Source of the DNA: an uncultured Candidatus Saccharibacteria bacterium
GTDB lineage: Bacteria > Patescibacteriota > Minisyncoccia > Phycocordibacterales > UBA9973
Assembly: GCA_964354985.1 (NCBI GenBank)
Contig: CAYHBR010000004.1
Coordinates: 1 to 63,293, forward strand
Direction: 5' to 3'
DNA length: 63,293 nucleotides
In this document: piece by piece, positions 58,393 to 62,778 of the stretch
Numbering within the stretch: the first letter of the stretch is position 1
How the letters are laid out: every line of letters begins with the position of its first letter
The notes under the pieces: generated by a model
Told to the model about the DNA's origin: nothing
Database searches by the model: none
The model's input: the letters and a program-made list of their open reading frames with translations, nothing else
Made by a program: the position numbers and the translations under genes

Positions 58393-58461
58393 GAGTCTAT
58401 TATAACCGCAATATGTAAATGATAAAAATAAAAACACGGGATTAATCGTGTTTTTATTTTG

Positions 58462-58747
58462 CTTTGTGCAGTAATTCTATCATTTGCGCGAACTTATTTC
58501 AAAGTAGATAAGTAGCGTTCCCCGCGCGCTACGCGCCTCTGTGCTTCGCACAGAGCTTCTGCTGAAGCAGAAGTGCGGGGAAACGCTCTGCACACCACCA
58601 CAATGTTTTAAAAAGGATGTGGTGTGCAGAAATGCAAATGCGGAACGCGAGCGAAATTTTGCGAAATGCTGGGGGTGTGGGGGAAAGTATTTCGCAAAAT
58701 TCGCTTCGCGTGCTTCGGCATTTCTTTTTTTGGCGGGGCGGACAACT
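58462..58747 (+). repeat. inverted repeat R, left copy (hairpin-rich, relatively GC-rich)
   Basis: It is the reverse complement of 60749-61040. The copies are near-identical over 58462-58716 versus 61040-60786, then an indel-rich patch, then tggcggggcgg[a/g]caact. Confidence 0.95.
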
Positions 58748-58785
58748 AGAAAAAATACTCCAAAAAAAACAAAAATGTTTTTGAA

Positions 58786-58818
58786 AACATAAAAGCACCT
58801 TTAAGGTGCTTTTATGTT
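58786..58818 (-). terminator. terminator hairpin after 58845..59987
   Basis: aacataaaagcacc-tttaa-ggtgcttttatgtt. Confidence 0.7.
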
Positions 58819-58844
58819 GAACATATATTCTAGAAATCTGACAA

Positions 58845-59987
58845 TTAGTTAAATTTGAAAGTTTTTAGTAATTGCTCAAACTTAGCGATTTCTGCGACAT
58901 CACCATTGCCGAGGGGTGTGCTAAATTTAAAATAAAGTGAATGTGTCTGATCCTTATGCATGAAGAAAACATACATATCATGAGAAGGAATAACTGTGTG
59001 TCCCGCATGTTCGCCTCCACTGACAGTGGCAGTATTTCTCATTTCTCCCACAATCGCTGTCTGTCCTCCAACCGTTATTGTTTTTTTAGTCTGCGCAAAA
59101 ATATCTGAGGAATTATTATACCTTGAGAGTTCATCGCTGTAGACAGCACTTCCCATCGTGTAACATTCAATATGCATACTATCTTTTGGCGCATAAATCT
59201 GGTTATTGCTTCCATCGTGCGTCTCGATTCCTTGTGAAGCAGTGTCGATAAAATCAATCATTCTGCTCATGATAGTGCCTTGTAGGTTAATGGCATTTGA
59301 CTCATTGCCAGCTGACCAAGAATCTGGATATTGGAAAGTATATCCACATCCTGTATTGGTATATGTTTTCCAATTGGCAGTAGAAATTTGGGGAGCATTG
59401 ATCGTAAATTTATTATCAGAAATATCGCTTGGAATATTTGGACCCCCAACGGCAGGCCAAATAGCAACATAAAAATTATTTCCGTAATACACAGGATTAC
59501 CACTATCCCATTCACTTGCATCGTCCGTTGGAAGTGTTACAACAGCCGAACCATTATTTAATGCCGTTTTTGTTAGGACATGTTCCTCTCCGCCCATTCC
59601 GCCAGGACTTTTATATCGGACATCAATTTGTAAAAGTGTATTTGCAGACAAATTACAACTCTTCCATTTAACTGTAATTTTTTGACTAGCTGTATAAACT
59701 TCTCCACCATTCGGTGAAAGAACCGTTATTGAAGGATTACATGTTGGTGTAGGAGGAGGCGTTTGCTGTTGTGGCGGATTATTAGCAGGCGGAGGAGTTT
59801 GGGCAGGAGGATTATTATTTGTCGTCGGCGGAGTATAATTCTGTTCAGTTGTCGGAAAATAATTATCACTCACCGTATTTTTCGGAGTAGAACTTTTTCC
59901 CGCAAAGTAAGCAACTCCGCCGACCGCTAAAACTCCAAGAACTATTAGTAAAACTACGACTGGTGCAAAACCTTTATTGTATTTCAT
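58845..59987 (-). CDS. membrane-anchored secreted protein with a Pro-rich linker and an SPNGGE-type domain (paralogue of 46313..47296)
   Basis: MKYNKGFAPVVVLLIVLGVLAVGGVAYF anchor, PPTTNNNPPAQTPPPANNPPQQQTPPPTP linker, then ITVLSPNGGEVYTASQKITVKWKSCN. Confidence 0.65.
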   Translation of the reverse strand: MKYNKGFAPVVVLLIVLGVLAVGGVAYFAGKSSTPKNTVSDNYFPTTEQNYTPPTTNNNPPAQTPPPANNPPQQQTPPPTPTCNPSITVLSPNGGEVYTASQKITVKWKSCNLSANTLLQIDVRYKSPGGMGGEEHVLTKTALNNGSAVVTLPTDDASEWDSGNPVYYGNNFYVAIWPAVGGPNIPSDISDNKFTINAPQISTANWKTYTNTGCGYTFQYPDSWSAGNESNAINLQGTIMSRMIDFIDTASQGIETHDGSNNQIYAPKDSMHIECYTMGSAVYSDELSRYNNSSDIFAQTKKTITVGGQTAIVGEMRNTATVSGGEHAGHTVIPSHDMYVFFMHKDQTHSLYFKFSTPLGNGDVAEIAKFEQLLKTFKFN

Positions 59988-60020
59988 AATGATTTAATCT
60001 TATCATAATTACTAGCTAGC

Positions 60021-60127
60021 AAAAAGCTCCTAGCCAGTATGATAACCTTGCGGTTACCCATACCCCTTTCGGGATATGACACGGTCTGTGCAAACTCTGA
60101 CTAGGAGTTTTTTATCACAGACCGTGT
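60021..60127 (-). ncRNA. structured 5' leader / unclassified RNA element upstream of 58845..59987
   Basis: The minus-strand RNA has a 12-bp helix ACACGGUCUGUG/CACAGACCGUGU and two adjacent GNRA-capped hairpins (CAUAUCCC-GAAA-GGGGUAUG and GGUAACC-GCAA-GGUUAUC). It also has a long-range helix CUCCUAG/CUAGGAG followed by CUUUUU. Both small hairpins have a G-U wobble on the minus strand where the plus strand would have an A-C or C-A mismatch. Confidence 0.5.
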
Positions 60128-60237
60128 TTGCGACCATGCCTTTATTTTTAAAGGTTTAGGTCTTCTATTAAGTTATGTTGCTATTATGCCAAATTTAAGG
60201 TTAAAAAGCTAATTTTTAGAAACATCTAAATTTTCGC

Positions 60238-60265
60238 TTGACTTAAATTACCTAACTGCTATACT
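60238..60265 (+). promoter_or_regulatory. near-consensus sigma70-like promoter with no downstream plus-strand ORF
   Basis: TTGACT (60238-60243), 16-nt spacer, TATACT (60260-60265). Confidence 0.5.
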
Positions 60266-60271
60266 CAATGT

Positions 60272-60325
60272 ACAAAGTGCCGTAAGGCTCCGAGAAACCC
60301 CGCCAAAAGCGGGGTTTCGAGTTTC
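60272..60325 (+). ncRNA. candidate ~50-nt small RNA convergent with the MazF-like gene
   Basis: It lies between the promoter above and the hairpin GAAACCCCGC-CAAAA-GCGGGGUUUC (60294-60318), which is followed by GAGUUUCU. It abuts the toxin stop codon (60325-60327). Confidence 0.3.
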
Positions 60326-60714
60326 TAGAGGAAAGATTTGAGTTTTTGTTTCATTTCATCAAAAAGTTCATTCGGAATATCGTAGAGCTTTCTTTTCAAT
60401 CGTTTAACACTAAGTAATTTCATTTGTGCCAAAATAGCGGAAACTTTTTGTTCGTTCGGGTCAGTGTAATTGAAATAAAAGTCAAATTCCTTTTGTTTTG
60501 TTGAAAGTGGAATAACCCAAAACATGTGATTGTTGAACTTTTTAACAATCAAGATAGGACGAGAAAAATTATCACCTGATCCGTTTTGTTCATAACCAAT
60601 ATTTTTTCCTAAACTGGACATCCACACTTCACCCTCTTTTGGAAAACGGTCAGGTTTATTTTTTTCGTCTTCAATTTTCTTTTTCAGTTCATTCCAAGAA
60701 TCAAAATCTTTCAT
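60325..60714 (-). CDS. PemK/MazF-family toxin (endoribonuclease fold), with no recognisable protein antitoxin gene
   Basis: KEGEVWMSSLGKNIGYEQNGSGDNFSRPILIVKK...VIPLSTKQK...SAILAQMKLLSVKRLKRKLYDIPNELFDEMKQKL aligns by eye with EndoA/MazF ([27 protein letters not shown]...SVILLEQIRTIDKQRL...DDEMMDKVDEAL). Confidence 0.78.
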   Translation of the reverse strand: MKDFDSWNELKKKIEDEKNKPDRFPKEGEVWMSSLGKNIGYEQNGSGDNFSRPILIVKKFNNHMFWVIPLSTKQKEFDFYFNYTDPNEQKVSAILAQMKLLSVKRLKRKLYDIPNELFDEMKQKLKSFL

Positions 60715-60748
60715 AGAAAGATTTTACCATTTTGAGTTTCTTTCTTCC

Positions 60749-61040
60749 AGTTGCCCGCCCCGCCAAAATCCCGCCAAAAAATCAGGAAGCACGCGAAGCG
60801 AATTTTGCGAAATACTTTCCCCCACACCCCCAGCATTTCGCAAAATTTCGCTCGCGTTCCGCATTTGTATTTCTGCACACCACATCCTTTTTTAAACATT
60901 GTGTGGTGTGCAGAGCGTTTCCCCGCACTTCTGCTTCAGCAGAAGCTCTGTGCTTCGCACAGAGGCGCTTCAGCGCGCGGGGAACGCTACTTATCTACTT
61001 TGAAATAAGTTCGCGCAAATGATAGAATTACTGCACAAAG
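60749..61040 (-). repeat. inverted repeat R, right copy
   Basis: Reverse complement of 58462-58747, including the 8-mer as gcacaaag at 61033-61040. Confidence 0.95.
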
Positions 61041-61163
61041 AGAGACGTTCGCGAAATTAGAAATGTGGAGCGGATTTTTGGGAAAAAAATCCGCACTGTG
61101 TGTCCCGACGCTAGCCTTGCTAGCGCGGACGAAATCCCAAAGTTCCCCCCAGCGTATGGAAAC
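61033..61163 (-). repeat. inverted repeat P, left copy (131 bp including the 8-mer; contains the recombinase 5' UTR and start codon)
   Basis: Checked base by base: it is the exact reverse complement of 62569-62699. Confidence 0.97.
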
Positions 61164-62715
61164 AATTCAAACCAAAACTAAATGTGTTCTCTATGCGAGA
61201 AAATCTACTGAAGAGGACGATAAGCAGGTGATGAGCATTGAAGCTCAATTGTTTGAGTTGCAAGAATATGCGCATAGAGAACGCATTGAAATTGTGAAAG
61301 TATTCACAGAAGCGAAAAGCGCAAAGAAGCCCGGGCGAGACGGTTTTGCGAAAATGATAAATTTTATTGAAACCTCAAAAGAACAGATTGGCATACTTTC
61401 TTGGCACCCCGACCGTCTCGCTCGGAATTCTGTTGATGGTGGAAAAATAATTTACTTGGTAGACATCAACAGAATTGCTTCTTTACGCTTTCCGCAGTTT
61501 TGGTTTGAGCCAACTCCGCAAGGCAAATTTATGTTGCAAGTGGCGTTCGGACAAAGTAAATATTTTTCTGACAACCTCGTGGAAAATGTGAAGCGTGGAA
61601 TCCGCCAAAAAATCCGCCGTGGGGAGTGGTTAACGCTCGCACCAATGGGATATGTGAATAACTACAAAACGAAGAATATCGAACCTCATGCTGTGTATTC
61701 CAAAGTTATCAAGCGAGCGTTCACTGCATATGCCACAGGAAAATATACCCTCATCGGACTGGCGGATTTTTTGGCGGATCACGGATTATGTCAGAAAAAA
61801 GGTACGCCACTTGCCAAATGTTCCGTCGTGAAAATGTTGACCAACAGAGCATATCTCGGATTTATCAAACATCGTGGTGAATGGCACGACGGAACATTTG
61901 AGCCGATTCTTTCCCCGACACTGTTTGAAGCAGTACAAAAAATTCTTTCGGCGAGGAGAAGACCATATCATTCTAAACTTCGTCATCCATTTCCATTTAC
62001 CCAGTTTATGACCTGTGGTGAGTGTGGCTGTGCGATTACCGCTCAATATGCCACCAACCGCTATGGTGTCATCTACACTTACTATCGTTGCACCAAAAAG
62101 AACGGAGTGTGCGCACAGCCATACATACAACAAAATCTTCTCGCCGAAAAACTCGAAACACTGCTTCAATCAGTGTCGCTTCCCCGTGAAGAAATTGAAA
62201 ATATGGAAAGGCAAATTTCTGCGTGGGAAAGTGAATCAATTTCTTCACGGGGAAGTGTTGCCCAAAATCTTAAAACTAAACTTTCCGAGACGAAGGAGAA
62301 GCTAGACAAACTGATATCACTGTATCTCGATGGCGACATTGAACGCGAAATATATTTGGAACGAAAAGACCTTCTCCTTCGTCAGAAAGCAAAGGCAGAG
62401 GAAAGTTTTAGAGATTTTGGACAACAGGGAAAGAATCGGCTCGAACCCTTGCGGAGTTTCGTTTTGTCCTTAAGAGAAGCCATGGAATTAGAAAAAACTT
62501 CCAATCATCTCGAATGGAAGAAGTTTTTCCAAAGTATCGGCTCTAACCCCTCTCTCAAGGACAAAACGGTTTCCATACGCTGGGGGGAACTTTGGGATTT
62601 CGTCCGCGCTAGCAAGGCTAGCGTCGGGACACACAGTGCGGATTTTTTTCCCAAAAATCCGCTCCACATTTCTAATTTCGCGAACGTCTCTCTTTGTGCC
62701 CAGGAGAGGACTTGA
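61156..62715 (+). CDS. large serine recombinase
   Basis: METIQTKTKCVLYARKSTEEDDKQVMSIEAQ contains the catalytic Ser in YARKST. Also present: a resolvase domain (GILSWHPDRLARN), a recombinase domain, a zinc ribbon CGECGCAITAQ...YYRCTKKNGVC and a coiled-coil tail. ATG at 61156 is preferred to the upstream start at 61063. The last ~44 codons lie in repeat P, and the stop (62713-62715) lies antisense inside tRNA-Leu. Confidence 0.9.
   Translation: METIQTKTKCVLYARKSTEEDDKQVMSIEAQLFELQEYAHRERIEIVKVFTEAKSAKKPGRDGFAKMINFIETSKEQIGILSWHPDRLARNSVDGGKIIYLVDINRIASLRFPQFWFEPTPQGKFMLQVAFGQSKYFSDNLVENVKRGIRQKIRRGEWLTLAPMGYVNNYKTKNIEPHAVYSKVIKRAFTAYATGKYTLIGLADFLADHGLCQKKGTPLAKCSVVKMLTNRAYLGFIKHRGEWHDGTFEPILSPTLFEAVQKILSARRRPYHSKLRHPFPFTQFMTCGECGCAITAQYATNRYGVIYTYYRCTKKNGVCAQPYIQQNLLAEKLETLLQSVSLPREEIENMERQISAWESESISSRGSVAQNLKTKLSETKEKLDKLISLYLDGDIEREIYLERKDLLLRQKAKAEESFRDFGQQGKNRLEPLRSFVLSLREAMELEKTSNHLEWKKFFQSIGSNPSLKDKTVSIRWGELWDFVRASKASVGTHSADFFPKNPLHISNFANVSLCAQERT
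62569..62699 (+). repeat. inverted repeat P, right copy
   Basis: Exact reverse complement of 61033-61163. It ends with ctttgtgc, whose last 3 nt are the 3' end of tRNA-Leu. Confidence 0.97.
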
Positions 62716-62778
62716 ACCTCCACGGATTGCTCCACACGAACCTCAATCGTGCGTGGTTACCAGTTACACCACCTGGGC
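62697..62778 (-). tRNA. trnL: tRNA-Leu (anticodon GAG), type II with long variable arm, no encoded CCA
   Basis: Hand-folded. Acceptor GCCCAGG/CCUGGGC plus A73. 3-bp D stem GUG/CAC. Anticodon stem CACGA/UCGUG with loop UUGAGGU. Long variable arm. T arm GGAGG-UUCAAGU-CCUCU. Confidence 0.9.

What the first reader, a model, noticed from the sequence alone, without database searches (positions are those of the whole stretch)
58425..62778. 4.2-kb recombinase module at the tRNA-Leu 3' end with attL-, attR- and an inverted attP-like junction sharing one 8-mer
Seen directly: the 8-mer ctttgtgc occurs at three places.
- 58462-58469, plus strand.
- 61033-61040, as gcacaaag.
- 62692-62699, plus strand, where its last 3 nt are the 3' end of tRNA-Leu.

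I name the flanking sequences as follows. Q is the AT-rich 14-bp hairpin at 58425-58460. R is the ~285-bp repeat. P is the 123-bp repeat. With these names, the junctions read Q|8-mer|R (left end), P|8-mer|R (on the minus strand, in the middle) and P|8-mer|tRNA (right end).

So R occurs twice in inverted orientation around a 2-kb cargo (MazF-like toxin plus a secreted surface-type protein). P occurs twice in inverted orientation, 100% identical, around the large serine recombinase gene.

Inference: Q|R and P|tRNA look like the attL and attR of an element inserted into a tRNA 3' end. Q would be the original tRNA terminator. The internal P|R junction looks like an intact attP lying directly upstream of the recombinase gene, as is usual for serine integrases. 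Here, however, it is inverted relative to attL and attR.

Simple integration does not produce this three-site arrangement. It predicts that the recombinase can invert either segment as well as excise the whole module. A two-segment invertible or excisable cassette of this kind has not, to my knowledge, been described for CPR genomes.
Basis: partly seen in the sequence, partly recalled or inferred. Interest (0 to 1): 0.85.

Follow-up and report, generated by a model that had tools for sequence, protein, structure and literature searches.

The report
tRNA-inserting recombinase element with doubled, mirrored attachment site
The repeats are real and mark a small mobile element, inserted at the end of a tRNA gene by a large serine recombinase, that keeps a second, mirror-image copy of its attachment site. 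The same odd layout recurs in dozens of genomes of the ultra-small CPR bacteria, and I found no published description of it.

Summary
CTTTGTGC sits at 58462(+), 61033(-) and 62692(+). Each copy lies at the outer tip of a long inverted repeat: R/R' (about 305 nt, 92-100% identical) around the cargo, and P/P' (131 nt, 100% identical) around the recombinase gene.

It is not an assembly artefact. I compared 81 loci (the window plus 80 relatives, including a closed chromosome).
- 70 have the ~131-nt repeat around the recombinase gene.
- 59 have its far arm ending inside the 3' end of an antisense tRNA (tmRNA in two further loci).
- 22 of the 36 loci with enough left flank also have the second repeat pair around variable cargo.

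Best reading: an integrated large-serine-recombinase element. attB is the tRNA 3' end, attL is Q|core|R and attR is P'|core|tRNA. An intact, inverted attP (R'|core|P) lies just upstream of the recombinase gene. The true shared core is 4 nt (NCAC: acceptor-stem end, discriminator, C). The R' tip also carries an outward promoter-like site aimed through the core at the recombinase gene.

Frequent flipping is not supported. The first cargo gene has the same orientation in all 13 loci that carry it, and the recombinase gene is canonical in about 93%. The rare opposite configuration does exist. Why the attachment region is duplicated remains unexplained. This is a new variant of a known kind; no description was found.

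The parts
58425..58460 (.). Q: AT-rich 14-bp-stem hairpin, probably the displaced bidirectional terminator of tRNA-Leu; left chromosomal half of the old attB
   Evidence: Inverted pair I25. The terminator scan lists it on the minus strand. Role inferred.
58462..58469 (+). Core copy 1 (CTTTGTGC; family-wide minimal core is GTGC at 58466-58469); crossover region of attL (Q|core|R)
58462..58766 (+). R, left arm of the cargo inverted repeat. Its first ~30 nt are the conserved element end (putative integrase half-site plus a promoter-like site). The rest is a chain of GC-rich hairpins.
   Evidence: Folding z-score is -7.2. End conservation.
58474..58502 (-). Outward-facing sigma-70-like promoter match at the R tip (TTGAAA, 17 nt spacer, TAGAAT, with an upstream TG), reading across the core towards Q and the neighbouring host gene
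   Evidence: mirror image of 61000-61028
58845..59987 (-). Cargo gene: 380-aa protein with an N-terminal membrane or signal segment and a Pro/Thr/Asn-rich linker; no Pfam match
60041..60162 (-). LOOT RNA (Rfam RF03000) inside the cargo
   Evidence: 88.2 bits (gathering score 46.4), full-length match
60325..60714 (-). Cargo gene: MazF/PemK-like toxin, the first gene next to R'
   Evidence: Pfam PF02452, E = 1.3e-9. The same gene is in the same position in L033.
60730..61040 (-). R', right arm of the cargo inverted repeat. Its tip abuts the core and the P arm.
61000..61028 (+). Outward promoter-like site in the R' tip (10 of 12 consensus matches plus an upstream TG). It ends 4 nt before the 8-mer (8 nt before the 4-nt core) and is aimed through the core and the P leader at the recombinase gene.
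   Evidence: A -10-like hexamer with at least 5 of 6 matches sits at the same position in 27 of 39 loci.
61033..61040 (-). Core copy 2, inverted (GCACAAAG on the + strand); centre of the internal attP-like site R'|core|P
61033..61163 (+). P, left arm of the recombinase inverted repeat. It is the 5' leader of the recombinase gene and includes the start codon.
   Evidence: pair I1 (131 nt, 100%)
61156..62715 (+). Large serine recombinase gene (519 aa from the ATG at 61156; 550 aa if started at 61063). The frame stays open through P' and the core and stops inside the tRNA.
   Evidence: Pfam Resolvase + Recombinase + Zn_ribbon_recom. Distant PDB relatives are the SPbeta and A118 integrases. More than 6000 homologues.
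62569..62699 (-). P', right arm of the recombinase inverted repeat. It encodes the recombinase's C-terminal tail, and its tip restores the tRNA 3' end.
62692..62699 (+). Core copy 3; crossover region of attR (P'|core|tRNA)
62696..62778 (-). tRNA-Leu(GAG), the integration target. Its acceptor and T arm form the conserved right half of attB.
   Evidence: ARAGORN; Rfam tRNA, 51.7 bits

Best explanation
Region 58462-62699 is an integrated mobile element of about 4.2 kb. It belongs to a large family found in CPR (Patescibacteria) genomes.

How it is built and inserted:
- Its large serine recombinase inserted it at the 3' end of tRNA-Leu. The crossover lies within 4 nt: the last two acceptor-stem bases, the discriminator, and the next C.
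- The old attB was Q|core|tRNA.
- The element now shows attL (Q|core|R) on the left and attR (P'|core|tRNA) on the right.
- The P' tip restores the tRNA 3' end.

What is unusual:
- The attachment region exists twice in the element, in mirror image. An intact attP-like junction R'|core|P sits between the cargo operon and the recombinase gene.
- Excision through attL x attR would therefore give a circle with two inverted attP regions of about 430 bp. These would separate a cargo segment from a recombinase segment, a layout like the yeast 2-micron plasmid.
- The window shows that circle integrated through one of its two copies.

Expression:
- The R' tip combines a putative integrase half-site with an outward promoter-like site. 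That site would start the recombinase transcript roughly at the core, so the internal junction keeps the recombinase gene attached to its promoter after integration.

Shown: the anatomy, its conservation, the target range, and the existence of the alternative configuration.
Inferred: site roles, crossover position, promoter function, and the circular form.
Unknown: why the attachment region is duplicated.
For: 1. Protein. The gene product has resolvase, recombinase and zinc-ribbon domains. Its nearest solved structures are the SPbeta and A118 serine integrases.

2. Conservation. Across 81 loci (window plus 80 relatives), 70 have the ~131-nt inverted repeat around the gene, and 29 of those arms are 100% identical. 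In 59 the far arm ends at an antisense tRNA. The targets cover 18 tRNA species, plus tmRNA. L088 comes from a closed chromosome, CP060229.1.

3. Repeat boundary. When the core is anchored on tRNA structure, the P repeat stops exactly 2 nt into the acceptor stem in 39 of 46 loci. The internal core always equals the tRNA's own (GCAC, CCAC, TCAC).

4. Second repeat pair. R repeats of 121-426 nt at 92-100% identity (95-100% in the relatives, 92% in the window) flank 1.1-8.3 kb of cargo in 22 of 36 loci with enough flank. They overlap the P arm by 4-13 nt. The R' tip abuts P in nearly all loci.

5. Half-site geometry. The pentamer CGAAC lies at +14-18 in the tRNA half and at +20-24 in the R half. 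Serine-integrase attP sites are known to carry the outer binding motif 4-5 bp further out than attB sites (PMC11722253).

6. Mobility. Near-identical element ends occur at different tRNAs. Within one conserved tRNA cluster, different genomes have the element at different tRNAs (L019, L022, L071). Some genomes carry several copies (L009, L041 and L057 from one MAG; also L036, L048, L067).

7. Alternative configuration. L043 has the tRNA joined to the recombinase 5' arm and P'|core|R at the 3' end, followed by the cargo's far end. This is what integration through the other attP copy predicts.

8. Promoter-like site at the R' tip.

9. Other assemblies from the same run series confirm Q|core|R.
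Against: - No empty site and no circular form was seen.
- If the circle used either attP copy freely, both integrated configurations should be common. They are about 93:7.
- Many arms are 100% identical although the segments almost never flip. This needs either recent insertion or an unknown homogenising step.
- 14 of the 36 loci with enough flank lack a detectable left R arm.
- The motif shift is 6 nt, not the 4-5 reported for studied integrases.
- The left half of attB (Q) shows no conserved motif.
- No directionality factor was identified.
- The promoter is only a consensus match, and CPR promoters are poorly known.
Confidence: 0.68

Rival explanations
1. Programmed inversion system, like a shufflon or the Hin/Gin switches. 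The recombinase routinely flips the cargo segment and its own gene between the mirrored cores, toggling expression. The element is essentially resident rather than mobile.
For: - The three cores alternate in orientation, and each segment is bounded by inverted sites.
- The recombinase gene is found flipped relative to the tRNA in a few genomes (L020 against L019, L043, L064, L086, L091).
- One flipped cargo occurs in L089.
- A promoter-like site at the R' tip reads into whichever end of the recombinase segment faces it, so flipping would switch the gene off.
Against: - The first cargo gene has one orientation in all 13 loci that carry it, and the recombinase orientation is canonical in about 93%.
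- Two of the three flipped copies whose arms could be scored are decayed (73% and 92%; L020 is 99%).
- The protein is a large serine integrase, not a small invertase, and known integrases do not pair attP with attL or attR.
- The same element ends sit at many different tRNAs, which requires transposition or integration.
Confidence: 0.14
2. Two separate elements side by side. One is an insertion-sequence-like unit (the recombinase gene with 131-bp terminal inverted repeats). The other is a non-autonomous cargo cassette with R terminal repeats. Each moves through its own palindromic junction and has landed at the same tRNA crossover point.
For: - Recombinase units occur alone between two tRNAs (L009, L053).
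- 14 of 36 loci lack a paired R arm.
- Arrays that alternate R and P units exist (L089).
- Cargo varies enormously while the ends are conserved.
- Many homologue contigs are 1.7-1.95 kb, which is just the recombinase unit.
Against: - Circle integration leaves direct copies of an asymmetric crossover dinucleotide. Each unit here is bounded by inverted cores, including the non-palindromic CCAC and TCAC types.
- The R' tip abuts P in nearly all loci and appears to supply the recombinase promoter, so the units are functionally coupled.
- The short contigs are equally well explained by assemblers breaking at the repeat tips.
Confidence: 0.12
3. Assembly artefact: a fold-back or chimeric path through a repeat graph in this metaSPAdes contig.
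For: - The window is a short-read metagenome contig.
- The repeats are long enough that related short-read assemblies break at them: sibling-run contigs end inside R and many relatives' contigs end at the repeat tips.
Against: - The same two-repeat layout, with the same gene orientations, recurs in dozens of independent assemblies from different studies. These include a closed 0.99-Mb chromosome (L088) and contigs of 426-516 kb.
- The repeat is imprinted in the protein family: the conserved C-terminal 'SIRWGELWDF' is the reverse complement of the conserved leader and start region.
Confidence: 0.01

Closest known systems
Large serine integrases of phages and integrative elements (SPbeta SprA, A118/LI, Bxb1, phiC31; TnpX, TndX, CcrAB)
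   Same: - Same three-domain enzyme.
- Short attachment sites with a tiny shared core.
- An attP-like site lies next to the integrase gene.
- The outer binding motif is displaced outward in the element half-site relative to the target half-site.
   Different: - The attachment region is present twice in mirror image, with 131-bp and ~300-bp near-perfect arms.
- The integrase gene itself lies between the arms and reads through attR.
- The targets are tRNA and tmRNA 3' ends, which from my own knowledge is the usual habit of tyrosine integrases, not serine ones.
- No directionality factor is evident.
- Sequence similarity to studied integrases is very low (E about 1e-6).
tRNA-targeting genomic islands and integrative elements with tyrosine integrases
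   Same: - Insertion at the tRNA 3' end.
- The element end rebuilds the tRNA terminus.
- Small accessory and defence cargo.
- Accretion of several elements at one tRNA (L016, L089).
   Different: - Different enzyme class.
- The shared core is 4 nt rather than tens of nt.
- These islands have no internal inverted attP copy.
Yeast 2-micron plasmid (Flp/FRT) and other circles that switch form through inverted repeats
   Same: The predicted circle has two inverted repeats, each containing the recombination site. They separate two unique segments, one of which encodes the recombinase.
   Different: - Flp is a tyrosine recombinase and the plasmid replicates freely.
- Here the circle is only inferred, the element is integrated, and switching between forms appears rare.
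Serine DNA invertase switches (Hin, Gin, Cin, Pin)
   Same: A serine recombinase gene lies inside or beside a segment bounded by inverted sites. hin lies inside its own invertible segment (my knowledge).
   Different: - Those are small recombinases with 26-bp sites and a Fis enhancer, and they flip frequently.
- Here the enzyme is a large integrase with 131-bp arms, a strong orientation bias, and insertion at many tRNAs.
DIRS retroelements (terminal inverted repeats plus an internal complementary region) and the folded single-strand attP of the CTX phage
   Same: An internal segment (R'|core|P) is complementary to both element ends. A single strand could therefore fold to rebuild a double-stranded attachment site. 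This resemblance comes from memory and is a lead only.
   Different: - Those systems use tyrosine recombinases and RNA or single-stranded DNA intermediates.
- No reverse transcriptase or single-strand machinery is present here.
- Nothing was tested.

Membership tests
Large serine recombinase (integrase) family | N-terminal resolvase catalytic domain with a serine nucleophile | tested here: met
   PF00239, E = 1.2e-22, residues 11-158. The motif YARKSTEEDD is nearly invariant across 26 homologues.
Large serine recombinase (integrase) family | C-terminal recombinase domain plus a zinc-ribbon domain (DBD1 and DBD2) | tested here: met
   PF07508 (E = 1.7e-11) and PF13408 (E = 1.7e-8). The protein aligns over residues 10-432 with SPbeta integrase 9dxh.
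Large serine recombinase (integrase) family | Short attP and attB sites sharing only a central crossover, with the outer motif 4-5 bp further out in attP half-sites | tested here: inconclusive
   The shared core is 4 nt in 39 loci. CGAAC is displaced by 6 nt between the tRNA and R half-sites, against 4-5 bp in PMC11722253. This rests on sequence pattern only.
Large serine recombinase (integrase) family | Catalyses attP x attB integration; excision needs a directionality factor | not testable with these tools
   This needs biochemistry or read-level junction data. No candidate factor was recognised in the window's cargo.
tRNA-integrating genomic island or integrative element | Element bounded by direct repeats, one of which overlaps the tRNA 3' end | tested here: met
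   CTTTGTGC is at 58462 and 62692 in direct orientation, and the latter overlaps tRNA-Leu. The same holds in 22 relatives.
tRNA-integrating genomic island or integrative element | Occupied and empty versions of the same site in related genomes | tested here: inconclusive
   No empty site was found for this species. Indirect support: within one conserved tRNA cluster, different genomes have the element at different tRNAs (L019, L022, L071).
Serine DNA invertase switch (Hin/Gin type) | Small (~190 aa) recombinase with a C-terminal helix-turn-helix; both orientations present in populations | tested here: not met
   The protein is 519 aa with integrase domains. Orientation is strongly biased: all 13 first cargo genes share one orientation, and about 93% of recombinase genes are canonical.
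Insertion sequence with terminal inverted repeats | Terminal inverted repeats flanked by direct target-site duplications; the transposase unit moves alone | tested here: not met
   The bases flanking the P unit are inverted, not direct. The unit is nearly always coupled to an R' tip.
Phage or prophage | Structural or replication genes; relatives in viral collections | tested here: not met
   No relative was found in IMG/VR. Cargo is 1-8 kb of accessory and defence genes.

The most novel reading that the evidence does not exclude
The doubled, mirrored attachment region may be the working principle of a new class of serine-recombinase element, not a frozen accident. The internal R'|core|P segment is complementary to both element ends. 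A single strand of an integrated copy, for example DNA taken up by natural transformation (thought to be a main route of DNA entry in CPR bacteria; my own knowledge, not checked here), could therefore fold into two stacked hairpins. These would rebuild a double-stranded attP with the break exactly at the crossover. That would allow re-integration without prior excision or a directionality factor. Repair of mismatches in the folded stems would explain why arms are so often 100% identical although the segments rarely flip. A weaker version: the promoter at the crossover and the two attP copies form an orientation-dependent on/off circuit for the recombinase.
Probability: 0.08. Interest if true: 0.95.

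Novelty: new variant of a known kind. Interest (0 to 1): 0.78.

Why it matters
- CPR bacteria make up a large share of bacterial diversity, yet their mobile DNA is barely characterised. This looks like one of their commonest mobile elements. The recombinase has thousands of close homologues, some genomes carry several copies, and the cargo includes defence systems (Shedu, restriction-modification, toxins), transporters and surface proteins.
- The family breaks two habits of serine integrases. It targets tRNA and tmRNA 3' ends, and it carries a second, inverted attP with long perfect arms around the integrase gene.
- The layout explains a recurring practical problem: CPR assemblies break at these repeats, leaving 1.7-1.9 kb orphan contigs.
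- The target core is only 4 nt plus the conserved T arm. This could interest people who engineer integrases.
- The family also gives a genomic home to the orphan LOOT RNA motif.

Tried and rejected
- Assembly artefact. Rejected on recurrence in independent assemblies, including a closed chromosome.
- R as a known RNA. Rfam gave nothing for R or P at E <= 1, although R folds strongly.
- Two tandem elements with palindromic junctions and a palindromic GC crossover. This fits the Leu-type core (GTGCAC) but fails for the CCAC and TCAC elements.
- Pinning the crossover to one dinucleotide. In every scorable locus the first core base matches the tRNA's own, so it probably has to match. However, 57 of 69 unoccupied tRNAs already carry C after the discriminator, so all four positions stay possible.
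- Empty site. Exact-protein look-ups of both flanking genes returned only occupied or truncated contigs. A JGI scan for this tRNA-Leu found nothing.
- Circular or phage form. There were no relatives in IMG/VR. Recombinase tails that read into R instead of a tRNA (about 5 of 110 homologues) turned out to belong to arrays or to the alternative integrated form (L089, L091, L043), not to demonstrable circles.
- Second recombinase upstream of R in L016. Absent; only a 30-nt remnant of an older P' tip is there.
- Literature. Three full-text searches found no description.

Full report
**What is in the window**

The window is a complete metaSPAdes contig, ENA ERZ4201063 NODE_387, with 35.9x coverage.
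- CTTTGTGC occurs at 58462(+), 61033(-) and 62692(+).
- A 14-bp-stem hairpin, Q, lies at 58425-58460.
- An inverted repeat R/R' covers 58462-~58766 and ~60730-61040. Its outer 69 nt are 100% identical and the rest about 95%.
- A second inverted repeat P/P' covers 61033-61163 and 62569-62699. It is 131 nt long and 100% identical.
- tRNA-Leu(GAG) lies at 62696-62778 on the minus strand.

The 8-mer is not rare in itself: 4 copies against 2.75 expected by chance. Its significance is positional, because it is the outermost tip of both long repeats and overlaps the tRNA 3' end.

Between R and R' lie a 380-aa secreted-type protein with no Pfam match, a full-length LOOT RNA (88 bits), and a MazF/PemK-like toxin.

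Between P and P' lies a large serine recombinase with Resolvase, Recombinase and Zn_ribbon_recom domains. Its nearest solved structures are the SPbeta and A118 integrases.

The start codon (61156) lies inside the left P arm. The reading frame runs through the entire right arm and the core and stops inside the tRNA at 62715.

Contigs from two other runs of the same series reproduce Q|8-mer|R and break inside R, as expected for a real inverted repeat.

**It is a family trait, not an accident**

The recombinase has more than 6000 homologues. The top 120 are 58-87% identical to it (apart from the window's own protein), and those that carry a source name come from CPR/Parcubacteria metagenome bins.

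In an alignment of 26 homologues the C-terminus 'KDKTVSIRWGELWDF' is conserved. It is followed by a variable tail that ends in translated tRNA 3' ends. The upstream in-frame extensions ('KSQSSPQRMET') are the reverse complement of the DNA encoding 'SIRWGELWDF'. The P repeat is therefore written into the protein family itself.

I fetched 80 loci from GTDB genomes and scored inverted repeats and tRNAs in each. Counting the window, that makes 81 loci.
- 70 have the repeat around the recombinase gene. The median arm is 131 nt; 29 are 100% identical and 51 are at least 97%.
- The 11 without the repeat mostly have the recombinase gene at or within about 200 nt of a contig end.
- 59 have the far arm ending at an antisense tRNA. 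The targets are Leu, Glu, Ala, Phe, Arg, Tyr, Lys and Val, 18 tRNA species in all.
- In two loci the target is tmRNA.
- Of the 36 loci with more than 2.5 kb of left flank, 22 also have a second repeat pair. It is 121-426 nt long and 92-100% identical (95-100% in the relatives, 92% in the window). It flanks 1.1-8.3 kb of cargo, and its right arm overlaps the left P arm by 4-13 nt.

One such locus (L088) is from a closed 0.99-Mb chromosome. Others are from contigs of 426-516 kb. An assembly artefact is therefore excluded. Many homologue contigs are only 1.7-1.95 kb, the size of the recombinase unit plus its arms, presumably because assemblers stop at the repeat tips.

**Anatomy of the sites**

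I anchored the core on tRNA structure by pairing the acceptor stem. In 39 of 46 scorable loci the P repeat ends exactly two bases into the acceptor stem. In those loci the internal core equals the tRNA's own.

The minimal sequence shared by all three junctions is 4 nt, NCAC:
- the last two acceptor-stem bases;
- the discriminator A;
- the next C.

It is GCAC at Leu, Phe, Tyr and Arg tRNAs, CCAC at Ala, and TCAC at Glu. The window's 8-mer is this core plus 4 nt, where the native tRNA trailer happens to match the P tip. The P tip often continues with CA, which completes CCA (22 of 39 loci).

The crossover cannot be placed more precisely. In every scorable locus the first core base matches the tRNA's own, so it probably has to match. 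However, 57 of 69 unoccupied tRNAs in these genomes already carry C after the discriminator.

Reading outward from the core, the half-site consensus sequences are:
- tRNA half: .Cc..a..GGA.TcGAACC
- R half: t.TaaTt.tA.c.TTtGC.CGAACtttTTT
- P half: cAaaagaaAC.Tt.tcg.aatt

The pentamer CGAAC sits at +14-18 in the tRNA half and at +20-24 in the R half. Serine integrases are known to bind attP and attB with the outer domain 4-5 bp further from the centre in attP (PMC11722253). The 6-nt shift here is close to that figure, though not equal to it.

This supports the following assignment:
- attB = Q|core|tRNA
- attP = P'|core|R
- attL = Q|core|R
- attR = P'|core|tRNA

The junction R'|core|P upstream of the recombinase gene is then a second, inverted, intact attP. 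It is present in nearly every locus, even where contigs stop a few hundred bases further on.

**A promoter-like site at the crossover**

The conserved R' tip reads TCGAAAAAAGTTCGNGCAAAnnnTATAATtAnA|core.

In the window it matches a sigma-70-type promoter at 61000-61028: TTGAAA, a 17-nt spacer, TAGAAT, and an upstream TG, for 10 of 12 consensus positions. It points through the core and the P leader at the recombinase gene. Its mirror image at 58502-58474 points out of the element towards Q.

A -10-like hexamer with at least 5 of 6 matches sits at the same position in 27 of 39 loci. The invariant GTTCGNGC lies in what would be the promoter's spacer, so it is conserved for some other reason, most simply integrase binding.

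My inferences from this:
- The recombinase transcript starts about at the core.
- The internal attP keeps the gene joined to its promoter after integration.
- Integrase binding there could repress its own gene.
- A transcript that runs to the end of P' would have 131 nt of complementarity between its 5' and 3' ends, covering the start codon.

None of this has been tested.

**Cargo**

The gene next to R' is always on the strand leading away from the recombinase gene.
- In 13 of 24 loci the cargo carries a 65-83-aa HTH_3 regulator, which directly abuts R' in 12 of them.
- In the window and in L033 the gene next to R' is the MazF-like toxin.

Downstream cargo is highly variable:
- a Shedu SduA protein;
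- an SF1 helicase fused to a restriction-endonuclease domain;
- a methyltransferase with MutH-like and AAA proteins;
- an ADP-ribosyltransferase;
- a sodium:solute symporter;
- secreted beta-helix/PKD proteins.

These are small accessory and defence islands. No relatives exist in IMG/VR, so the elements are not phages.

**Does it flip?**

The data argue against frequent inversion.
- The regulator gene has the same orientation in all 13 loci and directly abuts R' in 12.
- The recombinase gene is canonical, with its 3' end towards the tRNA, in about 93% of loci.
- About 5 of 110 homologue tails read into R instead of a tRNA.

The alternative does exist. L019 and L020 share the same tRNA cluster but have the recombinase gene in opposite orientations. 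L043, L064, L086 and L091 have the tRNA next to the recombinase 5' arm.

In L043 the 3' arm is followed by core|R and then by the far end of a cargo gene. That is the arrangement expected from integration through the other attP copy of a two-attP circle, not from a flip of the recombinase segment alone.

Of the three alternative copies whose arms could be scored, two are decayed (L043 92%, L091 73%); L020 is 99%. The central unit of the L089 array, whose left cargo is flipped, has arms at 88%. By contrast, about four in ten P-arm pairs overall (29 of 70) are 100% identical.

Other variants are consistent with a live internal attP and with accretion at resident sites:
- L089 is an array: R-cargo-R', P-rec-P', R-cargo-R'.
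- L016 has a 30-nt remnant of an older P' tip to the left of its R arm.
- L009 and L053 have the recombinase unit between two facing tRNAs.

**Best explanation and what remains open**

The region is an integrated large-serine-recombinase element at tRNA-Leu. Its attachment region (about 430 bp, P'|core|R) is present twice in mirror image. One copy was split by integration into attL and attR. The other remains intact between the cargo operon and the recombinase gene.

The excised form would be a circle with two inverted repeats separating cargo from recombinase, formally like the 2-micron plasmid. This accounts for every junction in the window and in the relatives, including the rare alternative configuration.

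It does not explain:
- why the duplication exists;
- why one configuration dominates;
- why arms are so often perfectly identical when the segments rarely flip.

Possible answers are untested:
- the canonical form is favoured because the recombinase keeps its promoter, or because tRNA read-through is antisense to it;
- copies turn over rapidly;
- a single-stranded stage lets the arms anneal and be repaired, which would also rebuild a double-stranded attP from an integrated copy. This recalls the internal complementary region of DIRS elements and the folded attP of the CTX phage (both from memory).

**Novelty**

Three full-text searches found no description of serine-recombinase elements with this layout, or of tRNA-targeting serine integrases in CPR bacteria. 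The search covers only the held library.

I rate this a new variant of a known kind. The enzyme and the integration logic are classical. The following are not: the mirrored second attP, the long perfect arms around the integrase gene, the promoter-like site at the crossover, and the tRNA/tmRNA target range.

Noticed in passing
window 60041-60162 (-); L080 1465-1581 (-): A full-length LOOT RNA (Rfam RF03000) lies inside the cargo of this element at 88 bits. A second copy lies inside the cargo of an unrelated family member at 78 bits. To my knowledge this is an orphan metagenomic RNA motif with no known host or function; here it rides on a mobile element next to a MazF-like toxin.
   Followed up: partly
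L055 7531-7972; L080 3553-3947: In two relatives the recombinase's far arm ends at the 3' end of a tmRNA gene instead of a tRNA. The target range therefore includes tmRNA.
   Followed up: partly
window 61156-62715 and about 110 homologues: The recombinase reading frame stays open through the whole P' arm and the core and into the tRNA in essentially all homologues. The variable C-terminal tail (about 30-50 aa) is therefore encoded by attachment-site DNA. A transcript starting at the core would have 131 nt of complementarity between its 5' and 3' ends, covering the start codon.
   Followed up: partly
window 58462-58780: The R arm is a chain of GC-rich hairpins that folds far better than shuffled controls (-127.9 kcal/mol, z = -7.2). 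It matches no Rfam family. Its role beyond the conserved 30-nt tip is unknown.
   Followed up: partly
L091 9543-9617 (+): ARAGORN calls a tRNA with anticodon TTA (reported as 'tRNA-Stop', a possible UAA suppressor) about 160 nt upstream of the targeted tRNA-Ala.
   Followed up: no
L045 10975-11257 (-); L037 8738-8772 (-): A group I intron (55 bits) lies about 1.2 kb beyond the targeted tRNA in L045. A DUF805b RNA motif lies inside the cargo of L037.
   Followed up: no
L016 3530-3579: A 30-nt remnant of an older, different P' tip lies directly left of the R arm. This suggests that a resident attR served as the target for a later insertion, so elements stack up at one tRNA.
   Followed up: partly
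L009, L041 and L057 (one MAG); L036, L048, L067: Single genomes carry two or three copies of the recombinase unit at different tRNAs. Contigs very often end exactly at the repeat tips, so these elements are probably a systematic cause of fragmentation in CPR assemblies.
   Followed up: partly
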